From the IMG/VR virus record IMGVR_UViG_3300013114_000098: DNA of 64,000 nucleotides. One strand, 5' to 3'. This document shows positions 5,810 through 53,826 of the stretch, one piece after another (position 1 is the first letter of the stretch; every line of letters begins with the position of its first letter). The notes under the pieces are model-generated. The model ran no database searches. It was given only the letters and a program-made list of their open reading frames with translations, and was not told where the DNA came from. The DNA is from a virus. The position numbers were made by a program, and so were the translations under genes.

Positions 5810-6691
5810 TTATTTTTCTTTTGACTTTTTGTATGCTTCTCTAATTTCTTCAACTGTATGTTCTTTTAAGCCTACTTTGAAATTTTCTGCATCTAAATAC
5901 TTCTTCAAACTTAGGTTAACGCTTTGTGCAAAATTTTCGTATGGTTCACCATGTGATGTAGCTTCATCTTCAGCCGCACCTTCTGGTGTATTTGCCCATT
6001 CATTTAATTTTGTTTGAATTAATTCTTCGCTTAAACCTGCATTTCTAAGTAATGTAATTAATTGAGTTGTGTCCATTGTTGGAGCCTCCTCTATTTTTTC
6101 TTCTGTAACTGCATTGCATCCACAACTGCATTCTGGACCACAATTACAATCTGAACCATGCCCACATGAACAGTCTTCAGTTATAGTTTCTTCTTTCATT
6201 GCTTTTTTAATTGCTTTGTCTTTAGCTGCCATGTAATCATCTGAATCAATATCACCGTCTTTATCGTGATCTTTTTTCTTACCTTCTTCTACTGGCTCTT
6301 CTGCTACCATGTCTACAGGAGTTTTATTTGTTATTTTTTTCTTTTTACTTAACTGTTCTGTTTTAATTTCTTCTTCTGCTGGTGCTTCTTCTGCTGGTGC
6401 TTCTACACTCTCTTCAGCATGTCCGCCTTCTGGCATATCGTGGTTTCTACGGAAATTTTCAACAAATTCTGTTATATCTTGTCCGCTCATCCAACGTGCC
6501 ATTTCATCAACTAAAATATTATCTTCAAGACCTAATTCGTCTTGTAAATCATATAATGGTTGAGAAAATTCACCAACTGCTTCTTTTGTTACTGGTACTT
6601 CTTTTAATTCTCTTTCTGCTGGAACTTGGCTTTGAGCATCATTGTCTATGCCGTGTCTAGCAAGGGTTAATATTCTGTCTAAATCACTCAT
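5810..6691 (-). CDS. Acidic putative internal head protein with a DxDxDG motif and a Cys-rich segment
   Basis: E-rich; many (I/L/V)xE sites; DHDKDGDIDSDD; CSCGHGSDCNCGPECSCGC. Confidence 0.6.
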   Translation of the reverse strand: MSDLDRILTLARHGIDNDAQSQVPAERELKEVPVTKEAVGEFSQPLYDLQDELGLEDNILVDEMARWMSGQDITEFVENFRRNHDMPEGGHAEESVEAPAEEAPAEEEIKTEQLSKKKKITNKTPVDMVAEEPVEEGKKKDHDKDGDIDSDDYMAAKDKAIKKAMKEETITEDCSCGHGSDCNCGPECSCGCNAVTEEKIEEAPTMDTTQLITLLRNAGLSEELIQTKLNEWANTPEGAAEDEATSHGEPYENFAQSVNLSLKKYLDAENFKVGLKEHTVEEIREAYKKSKEK

Positions 6692-7184
6692 TGCCTTTTT
6701 CCTTTTCTTTTTCTTTCTTAATTTTCATTAATTCTTTAATGAAACTGTTATTATATTCGTCACCGTAATGATCTTCTGCTTTAACTTTTTCAGCATCTTT
6801 ATACTCACCATCAGCTAAAACGCTTTTTACATCTTCACTTTGTGGTGGAATATTTTCATTTGGTTCGTGAGCGCCGTGTACTTTAAGTACGCCATCTGTT
6901 AATCCAAGCATATTACGGATATCATTTTGTATTTGCCAACCGCTGGCAATTCTATCCGTTTCAAATTCATGTGTATAAACTTCATATCCTTTGTGATTTG
7001 GGAAATCACGTGGAGCACTTTGTAAAATTGTTTTCTTGGCAGCACCGAGTCCTTTTGAGTCGTATTTACCGAGGTGCTTCTCAATGCGATCACATTGTTC
7101 ATCAGTTAAATCGTGTATTGTTTTAATACTAAATTTCCACGACTTATTCGATTCTTTTAAATATTCTGAAAATAGTTTTTTCAT
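6684..7184 (-). CDS. Hypothetical head-associated protein
   Basis: N-terminus MKKLFSEYLKES resembles T4 capsid-targeting leaders; late promoter at 7206-7214. Confidence 0.6.
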   Translation of the reverse strand: MKKLFSEYLKESNKSWKFSIKTIHDLTDEQCDRIEKHLGKYDSKGLGAAKKTILQSAPRDFPNHKGYEVYTHEFETDRIASGWQIQNDIRNMLGLTDGVLKVHGAHEPNENIPPQSEDVKSVLADGEYKDAEKVKAEDHYGDEYNNSFIKELMKIKKEKEKEKGNE

Positions 7185-7205
7185 TGCGGTTCTCTCCTAT
7201 TAATA

Positions 7206-7748
7206 CTATTTATCTTTTTCGTCTAAATTTTTCATAATTTCTGCTAACATAGCAGTTCTATCGCCTACAATATGTCCTTCTGTGTCTACTTCATCACCAA
7301 TTTCATGTTTTTTGCCGGCTACATACGCATCAATCTTCTGACTATCCTTTTCAAGTCTAGCTTGACGCATTTGTAATTCAATCATTTTCATCTTTTTATC
7401 CATTTTAGCCTGCTTTGCTTGTAAAGCTGCCGCTATCATTTTTGCCGCACTATCAAATATAGGTGCCGCATGTCGATCTTCTACATTTTTACCCAAATCA
7501 ACTAAATCTTCAAATGTATCCATGGCTTTATTAGCATATGCATCCATTTCTCTATCAAGCTCTGCTAATCCTTCAACTGTTGGTAAAGCCGCTTGAGCTC
7601 TATCTACCATACTCATTTCTTTTTCTATAGTAGCAATTTCCTGTTTTGCTTCTTCAGTTGTGGGTTCTTTTGATTTTTCTTCTTCCTGTTCAGGAAGTAA
7701 TTCTTCTAAATCAGGTAAATTTAATTCTTCTTCTAATTTTTTTGTCAT
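7206..7748 (-). CDS. Putative terminase small subunit
   Basis: 180-aa helical protein near TerL and gp4, with a gp16-like layout (inference). Confidence 0.5.
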   Translation of the reverse strand: MTKKLEEELNLPDLEELLPEQEEEKSKEPTTEEAKQEIATIEKEMSMVDRAQAALPTVEGLAELDREMDAYANKAMDTFEDLVDLGKNVEDRHAAPIFDSAAKMIAAALQAKQAKMDKKMKMIELQMRQARLEKDSQKIDAYVAGKKHEIGDEVDTEGHIVGDRTAMLAEIMKNLDEKDK

Positions 7749-8191
7749 TTTCTTTTCTTTTTAGAGTTTTGAGGTTTATTGAATATTTGTTTTTCAGTTA
7801 TAACCCTAAAACTCATGCCTTGTTGTTTACACCATGCATTTGCCGCTGCCCATTTAGCATGATTAACTACTGCTGACGCTTTTTGTTGTTGTGTTCTTGC
7901 TTCATTTAATGTTTGGCTCGCTGGTTTAATCTCAACCATTTCAGCGTGGTTTTGTCCTTTTTTATCCTTATACACTAATAATAAATCAGGAACATAAGTA
8001 GTTTTCCTTCCAGTAAGTGGATTTTTATAAGGTATTCTATGTGTTTCACTACCCCAACCTAATATAGCTGGATGATTATCACACATACGAAATACGGCTA
8101 ATTCCCACCCACTTCTGTAATGTGGTATTCTTTTACCTAAGTATTTATCAGGGTTAGTAAGGGTGTATTTTCCGCTTTGAAATTTAGGCAT
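7745..8191 (-). CDS. gp4: Head completion nuclease (TnsA-like PD-(D/E)xK)
   Basis: YRSGWE, WGSE..IPY, YVPD, VEIKP, N.AKW.AA..WC, FRVITE. Confidence 0.9.
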   Translation of the reverse strand: MPKFQSGKYTLTNPDKYLGKRIPHYRSGWELAVFRMCDNHPAILGWGSETHRIPYKNPLTGRKTTYVPDLLLVYKDKKGQNHAEMVEIKPASQTLNEARTQQQKASAVVNHAKWAAANAWCKQQGMSFRVITEKQIFNKPQNSKKKRK

Positions 8192-38063: not shown

Positions 38064-38076
38064 GTTAATAAGTTAA

Positions 38077-38285
38077 ATAGGTAGGACTTGGTTACACCTA
38101 CAAGCCGGAAACACAGATACCATTCTATAATTCCAGCAACCTAACCCCGCCAGTGACTGCGATGTGACTCCCTCTGTTTTCCAGATAAAGCCTGGGTACC
38201 ACCCCTGGTTAGTCAAGTTAGAGCCTCTGGTAAGACCCTCTTCCTTGCACTATTAACAAAAAGTAATTAGTTTTTTGTTACTTAT
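38077..38285 (-). ncRNA. Putative structured ncRNA (~200 nt), family unknown
   Basis: No credible ORF, GC-enriched, several stems, own promoter and terminator. Confidence 0.7.
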
Positions 38286-48325: not shown

Positions 48326-49156
48326 ATGACAAACCCATTAATTCAAGCATATAGAAAGCCTGCTTTATACATTCCATTACCAAGTGGCGGTAAATTCTAC
48401 AAAAAGAAGCCGAAACTTAGCATAGATAATGAACTGGCAGTATATGCTATGACAGCAAGGGATGAACTTATTACTAAAACCCCAGATGCTTTGTTTAACG
48501 GAGAAGCCACAATTAGTTTGATTAAAAGTTGTTGCCCTGATATTGTTGAACCAGAAACAATGCCAGTAAGCGACTTACTTGTAATCTTAGTAGGTATTAG
48601 ACAAGCAAGTTATGGAAAAAATATAGACATCGATGTTAAATGTCCTAAGTGTGAGTTTGATAATCAATTGCAATTAGATGCAAATATAATGTTATCAAAC
48701 GCAAAAACTGGCACAATTGAGCAAAGTGTAACATTACCAAGTGATTTTAAAATTATTTGTAATCCATACACATTAAACGATAGAACTATGTTACAAGTTC
48801 AACAAATTAAACAAAACAAAATGATACAAGGATTGGCTAGTGAGAAACTAGAAGATGCTGAAAGACAAGATCTTTTTGGAAAAACATTTGTTGAAATTGC
48901 AGAACTTACTGTTAGTTTAATTACTAATAGTATTGTAAGTGTACAAGGTAAAGACACTGATGTTATCACAGATAAAGATACTATTAAAGAATGGCTACAA
49001 AATATTACTAAAAATGATTACGAAGTAATCAGAACTAAAATAGAGGAACTAAGCGAAAGTGGCTTAGAAACTAAATTTGCTGCCAATTGTCAAGACTGTG
49101 GACATAGTTGGAAGACTGGTGTGGACTTAGACGTCGCAAATTTTTTCGGGGGTTGA
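48326..49156 (+). CDS. gp26: Baseplate hub assembly protein / tail chaperone
   Basis: LPSGG, MTARDE, IR.ASYG, CPKC, CQDCGH, terminal NFF. Confidence 0.8.
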   Translation: MTNPLIQAYRKPALYIPLPSGGKFYKKKPKLSIDNELAVYAMTARDELITKTPDALFNGEATISLIKSCCPDIVEPETMPVSDLLVILVGIRQASYGKNIDIDVKCPKCEFDNQLQLDANIMLSNAKTGTIEQSVTLPSDFKIICNPYTLNDRTMLQVQQIKQNKMIQGLASEKLEDAERQDLFGKTFVEIAELTVSLITNSIVSVQGKDTDVITDKDTIKEWLQNITKNDYEVIRTKIEELSESGLETKFAANCQDCGHSWKTGVDLDVANFFGG

Positions 49157-49380
49157 TAGCTTCTCGTCAACCCGAAGACATTGTAAAATTAGTTGAACAG
49201 TATAATAAGGATTTAGAAACTACAGAAGGTAGCTACTTAGATGTAGTTATTCGTAGTGAAGGTGCGGTTAGTTATAAAGACATTCTGCAAATGCCTGTGA
49301 GCAGTATTAAACTCTTAATAGAACGTATGAATAGTCGTGTTGAGGAAATTAATAAAGCAAGAAAAGGTAATAGACGTTAG
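49141..49380 (+). CDS. gp51-like ORF, probably reached by -1 frameshift from gp26
   Basis: G.VSY.DIL.MP..... motif; no ATG or RBS near its 5' end; T TTT TTC slippery site. Confidence 0.6.
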   Translation, partial: FFRGLIASRQPEDIVKLVEQYNKDLETTEGSYLDVVIRSEGAVSYKDILQMPVSSIKLLIERMNSRVEEINKARKGNRR

Positions 49381-49820
49381 TGGCCTGTTATTAAATTATA
49401 ATAATCTTCTGGCCAACTGTCATAATATGTGGTGTTTTTGTGTAAATGTTTACGTTTTTCATGTAAATCGCTTTTTCTTTGAACAAACACACAGTCAGTA
49501 AAGTTCTTTACAAAATGTCCACTTGTTCTTGTACTAGTAAAATATAATAAGTGAGGATGTTTTTCTCTAAGCTCTGCACAAGTCTTTTCTATAAAAGACA
49601 TATCATCTACATCACCCAACCAACAAATAGCCATTTGGTACTTAACATGGTCAAATGATTCTAAAGCCAGAACATTGTCACGTGCATCAACAAACTGTAA
49701 TGCATTTTTAATTCTTGCACTTTTTGCATACGGACATATAGGATATCCATCATCCTTTAAAGGCTCAACTGATTCTTCTGCAAACTTTAAAAATTTAATC
49801 CGAAATTCGTCCAACGTCAT
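49377..49820 (-). CDS. Hypothetical protein (CPYAK motif)
   Basis: 147 aa, AGGA RBS; PICPYAK.AR...FVQR...L....YYDSW. Confidence 0.75.
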   Translation of the reverse strand: MTLDEFRIKFLKFAEESVEPLKDDGYPICPYAKSARIKNALQFVDARDNVLALESFDHVKYQMAICWLGDVDDMSFIEKTCAELREKHPHLLYFTSTRTSGHFVKNFTDCVFVQRKSDLHEKRKHLHKNTTYYDSWPEDYYNLITGH

Positions 49821-49949
49821 GTATATGTTTTCCTGATATAATTGATGTCTTCGACATCATCAACTTCGCAAAGCTAATCGCTTTGCTCGTTGTTGTTGCT
49901 TACGCTTTATACACTTATTTATGTTAATTTATATTGAATTTAAATGACT

Positions 49950-50418
49950 ACTTGACAAGATGCTTTATTCACACTTAGCCTTATACAGGCCAAGTGTAAA
50001 TTGTTCTTGACATAGAACTCTACCCACAGATACTATAGTAAACCTAGTTTAGCACCTAGGAAGGGCGGTTACGCGGTACCCTTATTACATACTGCTTTAT
50101 AACGCAGAAACACCCATTGCCATAGTATCAACTTTGGGTTGTCCTCAAGTTCCAAATTGTCAGGAGAGCTTGATCATTTTGATTTGTCAAATCAGTGCAT
50201 TGACTTATAGGCACACCAGTTCTGGTCACAATGAAGTAACCTCAAGGTGAGTCGAGCGAATCTCGACCAATCAGGGCCTTGTAGCCTATGTTAGTTTTTA
50301 TTAGCCTAAAATTGTATTTGAGTTGGAGCCGGACTTTAAGTCTGTATGAGTTTTGGTTTTACACTATTAGTTATCTTATGCTTTAATTATTAGCTGATAA
50401 TAAAGTTAAAACGCTACT
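49950..50418 (-). ncRNA. Putative large structured ncRNA (structured core ~49960-50290)
   Basis: Lies in a ~630-bp gap with no ORF; nested long-range helices; sigma70 promoter upstream. Confidence 0.65.
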
Positions 50419-50424
50419 TTTGTT

Positions 50425-50453
50425 ATAATAACAAAAATTTAATACGTTGTCAA
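50425..50453 (-). promoter_or_regulatory. Sigma70 promoter overlapping the GIY-YIG stop codon
   Basis: TTGACA-17-TATTAT. Confidence 0.75.
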
Positions 50454-50896
50454 CCTTTCTTTAAGTGTTCCGTAAGAATTTTTGAACTACCCACCCTTAC
50501 GTTAATAATGCCGTTATAGTATTCATCGGTTTCTAATACTCTACGGTCAAATTGTTCTTTTGCTTCCATGTAACTTAATACACCTTTACTAGGACAATAA
50601 TGTAAAATTTCTCTAGTAAATTTATTTGAACCAAGTGTTAGGACATCTGCGTTTAAATGATCTGATGACCCCCAATAGTCTTGCCAATCACTTTCTTTAT
50701 ATCCACGTCTTTTATTCTTTTTACCTTTAAGTGGTGGCTTAGTTGTTTTAAATCTTGCTAGTTTTTTACCTATGTATTTTTTATTGTTAGTAAGATTTGT
50801 AATTACATATACAAATCCTTCGCAATCATTAGGTAATTCATTGACTATTTTATTTTTATATGTCCATGGACAATTATTCTTCTTTGACCCATTCAT
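50450..50896 (-). CDS. GIY-YIG family endonuclease (catalytic domain only)
   Basis: GFVYVIT...KKYIGKK...YWGS...FTREIL...EAKEQ...YYN. Confidence 0.8.
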   Translation of the reverse strand: MNGSKKNNCPWTYKNKIVNELPNDCEGFVYVITNLTNNKKYIGKKLARFKTTKPPLKGKKNKRRGYKESDWQDYWGSSDHLNADVLTLGSNKFTREILHYCPSKGVLSYMEAKEQFDRRVLETDEYYNGIINVRVGSSKILTEHLKKG

Positions 50897-51032
50897 TTAT
50901 TGTTTTCCTAATCAAGTCTAAAGTATCTATACCTAGTTCGTCCTTTTTTATTGTTTCCGGTGCATGTAATAATACATAAGTCCATTTTTCGTGTAATTCT
51001 AATTCTTCTTGTTTGTTATATGTATTACGCAT
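50874..51032 (-). CDS. 52-aa hypothetical protein (below the ORF-track cutoff)
   Basis: MRNTYNKQEELELHEKWTYVLLHAPETIKKDELGIDTLDLIRKTINEWVKEE; fills the gap between gp46 and the GIY-YIG gene. Confidence 0.55.
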   Translation of the reverse strand: MRNTYNKQEELELHEKWTYVLLHAPETIKKDELGIDTLDLIRKTINEWVKEE

Positions 51033-52803
51033 CAATTACTTCTACTTCAGTGTCAAATGTAGTGAAGCCATTTTCTTTAGTAACTTGTAGCACTCTGCTA
51101 ACTCTACCTACTAATTCATCTCTGTGTGAAATAAGTAAAATATTCTTATTTCTATCACGTTCAAATTTCTTTAACACACCTAATGCACTATCAACACCAA
51201 CTGTGTCCATACCACTATCAACAAGTTCGTCTATACAAACAAAGTTAATAGGATGATTCATACTTTCAAATACATCACGGAATGCCCAACTAAGTCCAAG
51301 TATAAGTCTATTACGTTCTCCCCTTGATAAATTATCAAAATCTAAATCTTGACCAAGTTGTGTAATAGTTACAGTTAAGTCACTTTGAAATTCTACTTCA
51401 TGCGGTAAACCTAGTCGTGTAATATAATATTCTAAACGTGTGTTTAAAAATTGTAAGTTTTGTTCAATAATCTTTTTACGAATAAAACTATCTTTGTTAG
51501 TTAATAGTTTTAATAAAAAGTCTTGATGTTCTCTTAATTCTTCAAGTGTATTTACTTCTTCCCAATCTACATCTTGTAATCCTGTATTTTTTAAAACATC
51601 AATTTGTTCTATATACGGATTAGTTTCGTTTGCGGCATTAGTCATTGATGATTGTAACTTATCTATTTTACTTTGATGCTTATATGCTTCTTGTAAGGTA
51701 TTATATTCAATTGTGGGAGCATTTCCAATTTCACCAATGGCAGTAATTGCATTTGTGTACGATTCAATTAATTCGTTCTCTTCAGTAATTTGAGTTTGAC
51801 TTTCATTTACAAGTTCTGTTTTTTGAGAAACTATTTTATCATGTTGTTCATCATGAATATCTTGTCCACATGCATAACATTTATGTTCTAATGTAGCAGT
51901 TAAATCTTCTTGTGCCTTATCTAAACGTTTCTGTTCACGTTCAGAACTACTTGTAAGTCTAGCTATTTCAGCATTTAAAGTATCTATTTGGCCTTTCTTT
52001 TCATTAAATTCAGCAAACTCTTCGTGTGCTTTTATTTCTTTATCAATGTCAATATGTTCTAATGCTTGTATCTCACTAGTATATTCTTGAATACGTCCTT
52101 CTAGTTGTGAAGCCCATGTCTTTTCTCTACGTTCAAGATCTTTAATACTATTATTAATACGTTCGTTTGCATCTTCTACTCCTTTAAGTCTATATGTTTC
52201 TTCAGTTATTCTGTCTTTAGTATTTTTTAATAGTTCTTTAAGTATATCAGCCTTCTCACTAAGTTTAGTAATTCCTAACAATTGCTCAATCATGTCACGT
52301 TGATCATTTGCTCTCATACTTAAAAATGGTTCAGTGTATGTATTCAGTGCAATAATATGCTTAAACATATTATGAGTCATACCAAGTGTTTGTTCAATTA
52401 CGTGTTGGCTTTCTCTGCCTTGCCCTTGCATTTCATCTGTAATGTCGTCGTCATTGCTATCTACGTCATTGACTAGATATTTAAATACATTGGGTTTGCG
52501 TCCACGCTCAATACGATAATTTACACTGTCTATTTCAAAATCAACAGTGACCATCATATTTTTATTATTAGTTTTATTAACTAAGTTATCTTTTTTAATA
52601 CTGTATAACGCACTACCAAATAATGCATAACTTAATGCATTAATAATTGTTGTCTTACCTGTACCATTACGTGATCCATCACCACCTAAATCTAAATTAT
52701 TACCTAATACAAGTGTTAGCCCTGCATCATCAAAGTGAACAGCCTGTGTGACATTGCCCACACTCATAAAGTTCTTTACGGTGATATTTTTAATTATTAG
52801 CAT
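51025..52803 (-). CDS. gp46: Rad50/SbcC-like recombination ATPase
   Basis: KNFMSVGN, NGTGKTT, CYAC zinc hook, LSRGERNR, IDELVD, ISH. Confidence 0.95.
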   Translation of the reverse strand: MLIIKNITVKNFMSVGNVTQAVHFDDAGLTLVLGNNLDLGGDGSRNGTGKTTIINALSYALFGSALYSIKKDNLVNKTNNKNMMVTVDFEIDSVNYRIERGRKPNVFKYLVNDVDSNDDDITDEMQGQGRESQHVIEQTLGMTHNMFKHIIALNTYTEPFLSMRANDQRDMIEQLLGITKLSEKADILKELLKNTKDRITEETYRLKGVEDANERINNSIKDLERREKTWASQLEGRIQEYTSEIQALEHIDIDKEIKAHEEFAEFNEKKGQIDTLNAEIARLTSSSEREQKRLDKAQEDLTATLEHKCYACGQDIHDEQHDKIVSQKTELVNESQTQITEENELIESYTNAITAIGEIGNAPTIEYNTLQEAYKHQSKIDKLQSSMTNAANETNPYIEQIDVLKNTGLQDVDWEEVNTLEELREHQDFLLKLLTNKDSFIRKKIIEQNLQFLNTRLEYYITRLGLPHEVEFQSDLTVTITQLGQDLDFDNLSRGERNRLILGLSWAFRDVFESMNHPINFVCIDELVDSGMDTVGVDSALGVLKKFERDRNKNILLISHRDELVGRVSRVLQVTKENGFTTFDTEVEVIDA

Positions 52804-53826
52804 TTATGTTGTTAGTCCTCTGTAAATATCTACTAGTAGTTGCTTTTTAATAGTATCACTTTGTACTGAGTTAAGTTGCGACAGTACAATGCTATCTACG
52901 TTTTCTACTTGGATATCAACTCCTTTATTCCAGTCTTGTGTATGTTCTTCTTTTTTGCTAGGCATAAGAGCAATCTCACGTAAGTTGTATTGTTTAATAA
53001 ATGTTTCTTTAATAAAGTTTGCTTCTTCGTATGTAATACCAACATCTAATGTAACACGGCAATGTGTTTTATCAGATAAGTATTTGTCTGGGTTATCTAT
53101 TAATTTACTTAATGTTAAAGTTCTATACTTAGGAGCATCTGGCCATGCTAGATATTCTATATTGCCATCCCAATCTAAAAACATGCATCCTCTGTCGTCG
53201 TCCCATGTATCAGCATAGTTATGTGGGAAACAATTGCCTGGGTAAATTACATTGCCACGTTTTTGTCTTTTATGAAAGTGTCCACTAAAAACCATCTCAG
53301 GTTTTGATAAGTCTTCTGCTTTAAGACCTCCTGTGTCTGGCATTTGTACAAGGGCATTCATATAAAAGTCTGGCAATTCAAAATGACCAAACATAAATTT
53401 ACATTCAATTTGTTTTAACTTTTTCCATTCGTCATCACATAGCCAAGGAATAAATGCTACGCCATCTTCAATAAGCATTTCCTTGTTTACCATTCTAATT
53501 TTTTTGAAGTCCTCAATCATTGATAAACTATGAATCTCACGCTTTTCACGATAATATAAATCATGATTACCAGTGATCATTATAATCTCATCAAAGTTCT
53601 CATTAAGTCTTCGTAAGTTACTAGTGGTATAATTTAGTGTGCTAACATTGATACTAGCACGATTGTGATGCCAATCTCCTAAGAAGAAACATTTTTTAAT
53701 GCCTCTTTTATGAGCTTCAGCAATCATCCATATGATAAAATCTTCACAATCCTGGTTATGATATCTACTGTTATTCTTCATGCCAAAGTGAATATCAGTA
53801 AAGATCACTGCTTTGTCAAAAAACAT
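52804..53826 (-). CDS. gp47: Mre11/SbcD-like nuclease
   Basis: DIHFG, LGDW, GNHD, FGHFE, SGHFH. Confidence 0.95.
   Translation of the reverse strand: MFFDKAVIFTDIHFGMKNNSRYHNQDCEDFIIWMIAEAHKRGIKKCFFLGDWHHNRASINVSTLNYTTSNLRRLNENFDEIIMITGNHDLYYREKREIHSLSMIEDFKKIRMVNKEMLIEDGVAFIPWLCDDEWKKLKQIECKFMFGHFELPDFYMNALVQMPDTGGLKAEDLSKPEMVFSGHFHKRQKRGNVIYPGNCFPHNYADTWDDDRGCMFLDWDGNIEYLAWPDAPKYRTLTLSKLIDNPDKYLSDKTHCRVTLDVGITYEEANFIKETFIKQYNLREIALMPSKKEEHTQDWNKGVDIQVENVDSIVLSQLNSVQSDTIKKQLLVDIYRGLTT

What the first reader, a model, noticed from the sequence alone, without database searches (positions are those of the whole stretch)
49950..50896. Large structured ncRNA candidate with its own promoter, abutting a minimal GIY-YIG nuclease gene
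Seen: a ~630-bp gap with no ORF in an otherwise gene-dense genome. A TTGACA-17-TATTAT promoter has its -35 box overlapping the nuclease TGA stop. The predicted minus-strand transcript has an A-rich 5' part of ~130 nt (TAGGCTA twice), then a GC-richer core of ~330 nt. Hairpins in the core: GGTCGAG/CTCGACT, GGTTAC/GTGACC, CTGC/GCAG, AAGGG/CCCTT (loop TACCGCGTAACCG) and CCTAG/CTAGG. Nested long-range pairs: CTTGA/TCAAG, AGAACT/AGTTCT and GATACTATGG/CTATAGTATC. Possible pseudoknots: GTCAA/TTGAC and ACCCA/TGGGT. It closes with a 12-bp hairpin, TTACACTTGGCC/GGCTAAGTGTGA. G-U pairs favour the minus strand. The nuclease is only a catalytic domain with a basic K/R insertion and has no C-terminal DNA-binding domain. 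Inference: this is either a nuclease-RNA ribonucleoprotein, a large phage ncRNA or ribozyme, or a folded primer RNA of an R-loop replication origin.
Basis: partly seen in the sequence, partly recalled or inferred. Interest (0 to 1): 0.85.

Follow-up and report, generated by a model that had tools for sequence, protein, structure and literature searches.

The report
Twin-box structured RNA of marine phages
The 629-base gene-free gap behind a small nuclease gene of this uncultured marine giant T4-like phage encodes a real, knotted non-coding RNA with its own early promoter; no RNA catalogue lists it, it carries one 7-letter word twice, its job is unknown, and it does not depend on the nuclease.

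Summary
Window 49821-50449 has no conserved ORF. It carries the best sigma-70-type promoter of the region and, on the minus strand, a 330-nt core (50280-49951).

The core's fold is backed by covariation in 30 distinct relatives. 94.7% of cells pair, and 40 of 82 pairs show compensatory changes, against 7-14 in slid controls.

Two identical 7-nt boxes (TGTCAAG) flank the terminal 13-bp hairpin. They change in lockstep across relatives (about 12 words), and no complementary partner lies nearby.

Rfam has no match here. Some relatives carry Rfam Polynucleobacter-1 as an alternative 5' domain.

The nuclease-RNA complex idea is disfavoured:
- the GIY-YIG gene is replaced by a PD-(D/E)xK nuclease in some contigs;
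- it lies on the other side of the RNA in others;
- it occurs without the RNA in phage Melnitz;
- the RNA occurs in contigs with no nuclease beside it.

My best reading (about 0.45) is a stand-alone early RNA that shows two identical boxes to an unknown reader. A ColE1-like R-loop primer (about 0.2) stays open.

This scan has found the same 'twin-box' family before on other DNA. No paper describing it turned up in my literature searches.

The parts
50450..50896 (-). Neighbour gene: 148-aa SegE-type GIY-YIG nuclease with a catalytic domain only. It is a neighbour, not a shown part of the RNA system.
   Evidence: Pfam PF19835, E 2.6e-34, residues 11-131. It is 77-91% identical in contigs whose gp46 is only about 50% identical.
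50425..50453 (-). Early sigma-70-type promoter: TTGACA, 17 nt, TATTAT with a TG extension. The -35 box overlaps the GIY-YIG TGA stop. The inferred start is near 50418.
   Evidence: Best site in the scan, 11 of 12. It is conserved in 15 of the 17 relatives inspected. It is one of 19 perfect TTGACA-N16-18-TAnnnT sites in the 123-kb record. The start site is inferred, not mapped.
50281..50418 (-). AT-rich, poorly conserved leader with repeated TAGGC and CTAA motifs.
   Evidence: 70% AT. Mean identity to relatives is 68%, against 81% for the core. The leader is short or absent in L096 and L119.
50210..50280 (-). 5' domain: P0 (GGC/GCC), P1 (GGTCGAG/CTCGACT), P2 (CACC/GGTG) and P2a (GTTAC/GTGAC).
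   Evidence: Helices 1-4 pair in 95-96% of cells, with compensatory changes. Covariance model R1, built from this domain, finds the same domain in a second RNA type at E 1e-10 to 1e-18.
50181..50205 (-). Hairpin region with two competing stems (AGTCAA/TTGACA or GATTT/AAATC). Its GCAC (50198-50195) is the 5' partner of the loop-loop contact.
   Evidence: The contact with GTGC at 50055-50052 pairs in 98.2% of cells, and 3 of 4 pairs change on both sides.
50145..50173 (-). P4 and P4a hairpin (TCAAG/CTTGA and TCC/GGA).
   Evidence: 100% of cells pair, and 6 of 8 pairs show compensatory changes.
50027..50139 (-). Pseudoknotted central domain. ACCCA (50139-50135) pairs with TGGGT (50116-50112) and crosses the 11-bp helix 50130-50120 / 50038-27. 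Inside it lie hairpins P7 (50107-50092), P8 (50083-50061) and P9 (50060-50043).
   Evidence: helix 8 has 4 of 5 pairs and helix 9 has 6 of 11 pairs changed on both sides. The local pseudoknot fits better than the nested alternative.
50006..50012 (-). Twin box 1 (TGTCAAG in RNA sense).
   Evidence: It is identical to box 2 here and in 80% of relatives over 7 nt or more.
49968..50000 (-). Terminal 13-bp hairpin between the boxes.
   Evidence: 96.2% of cells pair, and 4 pairs show compensatory changes.
49951..49957 (-). Twin box 2 (TGTCAAG).
   Evidence: The longest word shared by a sequence's own two boxes averages 6.9 nt. Between boxes of different sequences it averages 3.7 nt.
49895..49950 (-). 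AT-rich, poorly conserved spacer.
   Evidence: 79% AT against 66% for the genome. The matching 50 nt are 82% AT in two RNA types and 72% in the third.
49838..49894 (-). Conserved 3' module of two hairpins (49892-49861 and 49861-49841) just before the ribosome-binding site of the next gene. Whether it belongs to the same RNA is not known.
   Evidence: 79% mean identity. Compensatory changes are visible in the alignment, for example CAAAGC/GCTTTG to TTTGAC/GTCAAA. A like module, GAGCG-N-AAGCGAA plus a hairpin, ends the other two RNA types. No minus-strand terminator was found.
49377..49820 (-). Downstream gene p147 (147 aa, no known family). It is constant after the RNA only in this RNA type.
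   Evidence: No Pfam family. Its look-alikes are viral hypothetical proteins only. The other RNA types have other downstream genes or a convergent gp26.

Best explanation
It is the gene of a large, compactly folded non-coding RNA of an uncatalogued family, called 'twin-box RNA' in earlier notes of this scan.

Shown:
- the region is conserved without any ORF;
- the fold is on the minus strand and is backed by covariation;
- the fold contains a pseudoknot and a long-range loop-loop contact;
- two identical 7-nt boxes flank the last hairpin and co-vary as direct repeats;
- the RNA family occurs with, without and on either side of the GIY-YIG gene.

Inferred:
- host RNA polymerase transcribes it early from the conserved TTGACA-17-TATTAT promoter;
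- the folded core acts as a rigid platform;
- the working end is the terminal hairpin, which holds two copies of a phage-specific single-stranded word one hairpin apart;
- a separate, two-fold reader binds them: a dimeric protein, or two copies of, or two sites on, another nucleic acid.

On this reading the RNA is a stand-alone, trans-acting RNA such as a decoy, sponge or scaffold. The small nuclease genes beside it are mobile neighbours. They probably gather next to this highly conserved RNA gene as free-standing homing endonuclease genes do.

My odds:
- real structured RNA gene: about 0.95;
- independent of the nuclease: about 0.85;
- trans-acting, two-fold display to a separate reader: about 0.45.
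For: - No conserved ORF in 25 homologous gaps.
- The gap is 72-96% identical in syntenic viral contigs.
- Covariation: 82 pairs, 94.7% of cells paired against 30-40% in slid controls, 40 pairs with changes on both sides against 7-14, and 0 of 500 shuffles reach the observed values.
- The pseudoknot and the loop-loop contact are supported.
- The strand is settled by 263 G-U against 35 A-C cells.
- The promoter is conserved.
- Twin boxes: about 12 different words. A sequence's own two boxes share 7 nt or more in 80% of sequences, against 2.7% for boxes of different sequences. The same arrangement is seen in two further RNA types.
- No complement of the boxes lies within about 3 kb in several relatives. 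The promoter's own -35 box does not change with the boxes. Both points favour an outside reader.
- Independence from the downstream gene: in L022, L078 and L079 the RNA is followed directly by a convergent gp26.
- Independence from GIY-YIG.
Against: - Expression, ends and stability are therefore inferred.
- No reader was found.
- There is no terminator after box 2. In this phage the RNA may simply be the front of the p147 mRNA.
- Keeping both boxes and a separate partner in step needs three coordinated changes. A self-templated model needs only two.
- Most sequences are closely related, so the shuffle controls overstate significance. The slid controls do not have this weakness.
Confidence: 0.45

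Rival explanations
1. Cis-acting primer RNA of an R-loop replication origin, on the logic of ColE1 RNA II. The early transcript folds. Its box 1 then anneals to the template DNA strand under box 2, which is complementary by construction. This anchors a persistent RNA-DNA hybrid at the AT-rich tract, and the hybrid primes early, origin-dependent DNA synthesis.
For: - This is the only model here that explains why two direct repeats must be identical without any third co-varying element.
- An early promoter and no terminator.
- An AT-rich tract follows box 2 in all three RNA types: 72-82% AT against 66% for the genome.
- From my own knowledge, not tested here: T4 origins use a promoter plus a downstream unwinding element, and ColE1 RNA II needs an upstream RNA element that pairs with downstream template DNA.
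- The cumulative GC-skew minimum is 4 kb away, which is weak support.
Against: - The skew minimum lies about 4 kb from the RNA, where the sign of the skew reverses.
- A covarying RNA module lies beyond the AT-rich tract. This suggests that the functional RNA runs through the tract.
- An A/U-rich hybrid would be weak.
- The RNA occurs in varied genome contexts.
- No replication data exist for this locus.
Confidence: 0.2
2. Cis-regulatory leader, or 3'-UTR element. On this reading the structure controls translation or stability of the mRNA it is part of: p147 downstream here, GIY-YIG downstream in the L010-type loci.
For: - No terminator lies between the RNA and p147. The conserved 3' hairpins sit 10-50 nt before the p147 ribosome-binding site.
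- Rfam lists the related Polynucleobacter-1 motif as probably cis-regulatory.
- p147 follows the RNA in every complete locus of this RNA type.
Against: - In other members the RNA is followed by unrelated genes or directly by a convergent gp26.
- At 330-470 nt, with a pseudoknot, a loop-loop contact and twin boxes, it is far larger than known leaders.
- The twin boxes remain unexplained.
Confidence: 0.12
3. RNA partner or guide of the adjacent minimal nuclease, in the manner of omega-RNA with IscB or TnpB.
For: - The nuclease has no DNA-binding domain.
- Of the RNA loci found from an RNA motif alone whose upstream flank is present, most have GIY-YIG directly upstream on the same strand.
- The boxes are variable, as a guide would be.
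Against: - GIY-YIG is swapped for an unrelated PD-(D/E)xK nuclease (PF24608) in L119, L122, L129, L135, L139 and L153, and by tblastn in L177 and L241.
- The gene order is reversed in the L010-type loci.
- Full RNAs occur with no recognisable nuclease beside them, for example L268 next to aldolase and SHMT genes, and L260.
- An 80%-identical GIY-YIG occurs without the RNA in phage Melnitz.
- The nuclease is 85-90% conserved while the boxes differ.
Confidence: 0.05
4. A DNA-level element, such as a recombination site, a nuclease target or iteron-like repeats around a cruciform. On this reading the RNA fold is incidental.
For: - Direct repeats that flank an inverted repeat are typical of DNA sites.
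- On the plus strand of this window both boxes read as TTGACA with a TAnnnT 16-18 nt on.
Against: - G-U pairs outnumber A-C pairs 263 to 35, so the fold is strand-specific and therefore RNA.
- A pseudoknot and a loop-loop contact have no DNA-duplex meaning.
- In relatives the boxes drift away from the -35 consensus.
Confidence: 0.03

Closest known systems
'Twin-box' structured RNA noted earlier in this scan on other phage DNA (unpublished AI notes, e.g. e1-3440727)
   Same: A large ORF-free gap next to a small GIY-YIG gene in uncultured aquatic T4-like phages, a knotted core, and two identical co-varying 7-nt boxes around the last hairpin. I re-derived all of these here.
   Different: This window belongs to a sub-type with its own 5' domain (model R1) and a constant p147 gene downstream. 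Those notes are unchecked leads, not a published family.
Polynucleobacter-1 RNA motif (Rfam RF01718; Weinberg et al. 2010, PMC2864571)
   Same: In relatives L023 and L054 the first ~145 nt of the homologous RNA behind GIY-YIG match RF01718 at 107.8 and 59.4 bits, with a gathering score of 37. The rest of those RNAs aligns with the second RNA type, which shares the window's 5' domain in other members.
   Different: The window itself has no RF01718 match even at E up to 10. Here a different 5' domain takes its place. RF01718 covers only about 141 nt and has no known function.
GOLLD, ROOL and other large 'ornate' RNAs linked to phages and prophages (Rfam; from my own knowledge)
   Same: Several hundred nucleotides long, with many helices, tertiary contacts, a phage association and an unknown function.
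   Different: No match to any Rfam model. Twin direct-repeat boxes are not a described feature of those RNAs. Nothing is known here about multimer formation.
ColE1 RNA II and T4 R-loop origins (from my own knowledge)
   Same: A promoter-driven, unterminated, folded RNA followed by an AT-rich tract. In ColE1 an upstream RNA element must match a downstream sequence, which is the same logic as twin boxes.
   Different: There is no sequence or structural homology, and no replication evidence for this locus.
Omega-RNA / HEARO with IscB, and the TnpB guide RNA (nuclease-associated RNAs)
   Same: A structured RNA lies directly beside a small nuclease gene.
   Different: The nuclease class differs, and co-occurrence is not obligatory. 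No guide-target relation was found.

Membership tests
Twin-box RNA (scan-internal, unpublished) | Two identical boxes of 6-9 nt flank the 3'-terminal long hairpin and change together between relatives. | tested here: met
   TGTCAAG at 50012-50006 and 49957-49951. About 12 words occur in 30 sequences. The longest word shared by a sequence's own boxes averages 6.9 nt, against 3.7 nt between sequences.
Twin-box RNA (scan-internal, unpublished) | A conserved multi-helix core with a pseudoknot, supported by covariation. | tested here: met
Twin-box RNA (scan-internal, unpublished) | Homology to other members shown by a model, not only by look. | tested here: met
   Model R1, built from window-type sequences only, hits the second RNA type at E 1e-10 to 1e-18. 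It gave no hit at E up to 1 in the L010-type loci, whose kinship rests on shared architecture only.
Polynucleobacter-1 RNA (Rfam RF01718) | A covariance-model score at or above the gathering score of 37 bits. | tested here: not met
   No hit in 49700-50600 even at E up to 10. The threshold is met in relatives L023 and L054.
GOLLD, ROOL, OLE, raiA, HEARO and every other Rfam 15 family | A covariance-model match. | tested here: not met
   There is no gathering-level hit in the gap. The only hit in the window is manA at 38071-38277. The E up to 10 list holds only chance-level snoRNA and sRNA matches.
Nuclease-guide RNA system (omega-RNA-like) | Obligatory co-occurrence of the RNA with one nuclease family. 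| tested here: not met
Nuclease-guide RNA system (omega-RNA-like) | A variable guide segment that matches a target. | tested here: inconclusive
   The boxes are variable. No complement lies within about 3 kb, and the box or its complement is not enriched in the 123-kb record: 9 and 6 copies seen against about 7 expected. The record is only about 34% complete.
R-loop primer origin (ColE1 RNA II / T4 ori type) | A promoter, no terminator and a downstream AT-rich unwinding tract. | tested here: met
   These features are permissive, not specific.
R-loop primer origin (ColE1 RNA II / T4 ori type) | A persistent RNA-DNA hybrid and initiation of DNA synthesis at the site. | not testable with these tools
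   The GC-skew minimum is about 4 kb away, where the sign of the skew reverses.
Cis-regulatory leader or riboswitch | A constant class of downstream gene on the same strand. | tested here: not met
   p147 follows the RNA only in this sub-type. Elsewhere the RNA is followed by varied genes or a convergent gp26.
SegE-type GIY-YIG (Pfam PF19835), for the neighbour gene | A Pfam match above the cut-off. | tested here: met
   118.6 bits against a cut-off of 25.

The most novel reading that the evidence does not exclude
The twin boxes are a self-templating device. The RNA copy of box 1 re-anneals to the template DNA under box 2, so that a folded early transcript locks itself onto its own gene as a persistent R-loop. 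That R-loop primes replication. This would be a ColE1-like, RNA-structure-dependent origin in giant T4-like phages, portable between genomes.
Probability: 0.2. Interest if true: 0.8.

Novelty: new variant of a known kind. Interest (0 to 1): 0.6.

Why it matters
Few large RNAs with tertiary structure are known, and each new class has been informative. This one is common in uncultured marine and freshwater T4-like phages and absent from Rfam. Only one alternative 5' module was catalogued, in 2010, without a function.

Its co-varying direct repeats are an unusual signal. They point to a sequence-specific reader or to self-templating on DNA, and either can be tested by swapping the boxes.

It also gives a clear counter-example to reading every structured RNA beside a small nuclease gene as a guide RNA.

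Tried and rejected
- Known RNA family: Rfam 15 gave nothing in the gap at gathering level or at E up to 10. It also gave nothing in seven related contigs.
- Known phage DNA: blastn of the gap, and of a second-type gap, against 50,697 phage records found no match.
- Hidden or broken gene: there is no shared ORF.
- Internal partner for the boxes: several relatives have no complement of 7-8 nt, G-U pairs allowed, within about 3 kb.
- The box as complement of the RNA's own -35 box: the -35 box is invariant while the boxes vary.
- Boxes as antisense promoters: both fit TTGACA-N-TAnnnT in this window only, and relatives drift away from that pattern. I rejected this as coincidence.
- Boxes pairing with each other: the near-palindrome holds for TGTCAAG but fails for other words, judged by eye on the output.
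- Boxes as codon-like tRNA specifiers: I dropped this untested, because several 'codons' would be stop codons.
- AGAACT/AGTTCT helix: only 72% of cells pair.
- Nested partner for ACCCA: it fits less well than the pseudoknot.
- Bacterial genomes: the core motif has 0 hits in 185,579 species genomes.
- Cultured example: phage Melnitz has the nuclease but no match to model R1 of the RNA's 5' domain.
- The syntenic 1.5-kb gap of Pseudomonas phage PA5oct has a TTGACA-17-TATAAT promoter, but I showed no homology. The four published PA5oct ncRNAs lie elsewhere.
- p147: no known family.
- Literature: no paper describing this RNA was found.
Full report
**Setting.** The window is part of a 123,388-bp IMG/VR virus record that CheckV rates about 34% complete, so it is a fragment of a giant phage. 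Its GC content is 34%.

On the minus strand lie, in order:
- gp47 (52804-53826);
- gp46 (51025-52803);
- a 53-aa ORF;
- a 148-aa SegE-type GIY-YIG gene (50450-50896; PF19835, E 2.6e-34);
- the 629-nt gap (49821-50449);
- a 147-aa gene of no known family (49377-49820).

A gp26-like baseplate hub gene converges on the plus strand. The closest cultured gp46 proteins are those of PA5oct-like Pseudomonas jumbo phages, at 50% identity.

- The gap has no ORF shared with its homologues.
- TTGACA-17-TATTAT with a TG extension is the best promoter-like site in 49000-51200. Its -35 box overlaps the nuclease stop codon.
- The promoter is conserved in 15 of the 17 relatives inspected.
- It is one of 19 perfect sites of this kind in the record, and 14 of them lie on the minus strand.
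- Folding the single sequence gives only z -2.5 on the minus strand and -2.2 on the plus strand. The case therefore rests on comparison with relatives.

**Relatives.** Searches of viral contigs with the two flanking proteins, and later with an RNA motif alone, gave about 50 syntenic contigs. In these the gap is 72-96% identical. The core (50280-49951) averages 81% identity to the window. The leader averages 68% and the spacer behind the core 58%.

**Structure.** I used an alignment of 30 distinct core sequences (A2) and a structure of 82 pairs.
- 94.7% of cells are standard pairs, against 30-40% when the 3' partners are slid by 1-3 columns.
- 40 pairs show changes on both sides, against 7-14 in the slid controls.
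- The covariation score is 0.267, against at most 0.06 in the slid controls.
- 0 of 500 shuffles reach the observed values.

So are the TCAAG/CTTGA helix, the 11-bp GATACTATGG/CTATAGTATC helix and the terminal hairpin.

ACCCA (50139-50135) pairs with the nearer TGGGT (50116-50112). That makes an H-type pseudoknot across the 11-bp helix, with 4 of 5 pairs changed on both sides. The nested alternative fits less well.

An unbiased scan for covarying column runs also found a loop-loop contact, GCAC (50198-50195) with GTGC (50055-50052). It pairs in 98.2% of cells, and 3 of 4 pairs change on both sides.

G-U cells outnumber A-C cells 263 to 35. The fold is therefore on the minus strand and is RNA, not a DNA cruciform. 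AGAACT/AGTTCT is not supported.

**Twin boxes.** Earlier notes of this scan pointed me to 'twin boxes', and I tested them here.
- TGTCAAG occurs at 50012-50006 and at 49957-49951, on either side of the 13-bp hairpin.
- Relatives have TGCCAAG, TGTGAAG, GGTGAAG, GGTTAAAG, GGGAAAAG, GGGAAAT and others, each present twice.
- The longest word shared by a sequence's own two box regions averages 6.9 nt. Between sequences with different words it averages 3.7 nt.
- A shared word of 7 nt or more occurs in 80% of own comparisons and 2.7% of cross comparisons.
- Several relatives have no complementary word within about 3 kb.
- The word and its complement are not enriched in the 123-kb record.

**A wider family.** The GIY-YIG protein is 77-87% identical in contigs whose gp46 is only about 50% and gp26 about 30% identical. 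This suggests a mobile or very strongly constrained gene.

In many of those contigs a gap of 550-800 nt follows the nuclease gene. It holds a second RNA type with its own covariation, UUCG hairpins and twin boxes such as ACATGAAG and ACATGATG.

A covariance model built only from the window-type 5' domain (R1) finds that domain in the second type at E 1e-10 to 1e-18. The two types are therefore homologous.

In a third group the gene order is reversed. A promoter-driven region of about 650 nt, with the same architecture and twin boxes such as GACAAGT and GAACAAG, lies upstream of GIY-YIG on the gp26 strand. R1 does not reach this group, so its kinship rests on architecture.

Two second-type members (L023, L054) carry Rfam Polynucleobacter-1 (RF01718) as their 5' domain. 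The window does not. That motif was listed in 2010 as a probable cis-regulatory RNA of Burkholderiales and fresh water, with no function assigned.

**Is the nuclease a partner?** An RNA-only motif search of the window type found six contigs with no GIY-YIG: L119, L122, L129, L135, L139 and L153. In the four I inspected, the gene before the RNA is a 177-183-aa PD-(D/E)xK nuclease; Pfam PF24608, E about 1e-25, was confirmed on L119 and L139.

An RNA-only search of the second type found 94 contigs.
- Most have GIY-YIG directly upstream.
- Two have the PD-(D/E)xK nuclease.
- Several hold full or partial RNAs in quite different surroundings with no recognisable nuclease. L268 lies between a class II aldolase-like gene and a small ORF followed by an SHMT gene. 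L260 lies about 0.6 kb from a ClpP gene.

Conversely, cultured Methylophilales phage Melnitz has an 80%-identical GIY-YIG behind its ribonucleotide reductase genes. There is no large gap beside it and no significant match to model R1 of the RNA's 5' domain in its 141.5-kb genome.

The pattern of different small nucleases on either side fits free-standing homing endonuclease genes that gather beside a very conserved sequence. That is an inference.

**Is it a leader?** In this sub-type p147 always follows on the same strand with no terminator between. In L022, L078 and L079 the RNA runs straight into a convergent gp26, and other members have unrelated downstream genes. The RNA is therefore not tied to one regulated gene.

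**Is it an origin?**
- For: an early promoter, no terminator and an AT-rich tract after box 2 in all three types (72-82% AT against 66% for the genome).
- For: box identity is exactly what a ColE1-like mechanism needs, in which upstream RNA anneals to downstream template DNA. That model needs no third co-varying element.
- Against or neutral: the cumulative GC-skew minimum lies about 4 kb away, where the sign of the skew reverses.
- Against or neutral: a covarying RNA module continues beyond the AT-rich tract.
- No replication data exist.

**Verdict.** This is a real, large, knotted non-coding RNA of an uncatalogued family that is widespread in uncultured aquatic T4-like phages. Its function is unknown.

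I commit to a stand-alone early RNA that shows two identical boxes to a separate reader (0.45). The alternatives are an R-loop primer (0.2), a leader (0.12), a nuclease partner (0.05) and a DNA element (0.03).

The same family has been reported several times by this scan on other genomes. I re-derived the key points independently here. No publication describing it was found in my searches.

Noticed in passing
window 38071-38277 (-): manA RNA (Rfam RF01745, 57.8 bits against a gathering score of 55.2). It is the only Rfam family found in the window.
   Followed up: no
window 50450-50896, and loci L008-L080: The 148-aa GIY-YIG protein is 77-87% identical in contigs whose gp46 is about 50% and gp26 about 30% identical. 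It sits between these genes in two orientations. This looks like a mobile (homing-type) gene or one under unusually strong constraint.
   Followed up: partly
L119:3059-3604, L139:10884-11435: A PD-(D/E)xK nuclease of about 180 aa (PF24608) takes the place of GIY-YIG directly before the RNA, which is a non-homologous replacement at the same spot. tblastn also finds it before the RNA in L177 and L241.
   Followed up: partly
L268:7340-7920, L260:2150-2790 (-): Full-length second-type twin-box RNAs lie outside the gp46-gp26 setting, near class II aldolase, Bax1-I, SHMT and ClpP-like genes at about 41% GC. I did not settle whether these contigs are phage or cellular.
   Followed up: partly
L169 (PA5oct NC_071039) 6517-8031: At the syntenic place in cultured Pseudomonas phage PA5oct, between a gene annotated as a RusA-like resolvase and a 150-aa gene next to the baseplate hub, lies about 1.5 kb with only tiny annotated ORFs. 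A TTGACA-17-TATAAT promoter sits near position 6651. No homology to the window RNA was shown.
   Followed up: partly
window 49838-49894; also the ends of the RNA in L008-L080: A conserved 3' module ends all three RNA types. It is a stem enclosing GAGC...GCGAA with a small inner hairpin or GNRA-like loop, followed by a second hairpin. Its role is unknown.
   Followed up: no
window 50281-50330, and the leaders of relatives: Repeated TAGGC and CTAATA-like words precede the core in all RNA types. In the L010-type loci some of them read like T4 late promoters (TATAAAT).
   Followed up: no
window 50874-51035 (-): A 53-aa ORF between gp46 and GIY-YIG overlaps both gene ends. It is conserved at 48-100% identity in relatives, so it is probably a real small protein.
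   Followed up: no
window 49868-49886 (+): Read on the plus strand, the first 3' hairpin is followed by a T-rich run. It therefore looks like a terminator for transcription coming from the gp26 side.
   Followed up: no
window 49108-49380 (+): A 90-aa ORF overlaps the end of gp26 and the end of p147.
   Followed up: no
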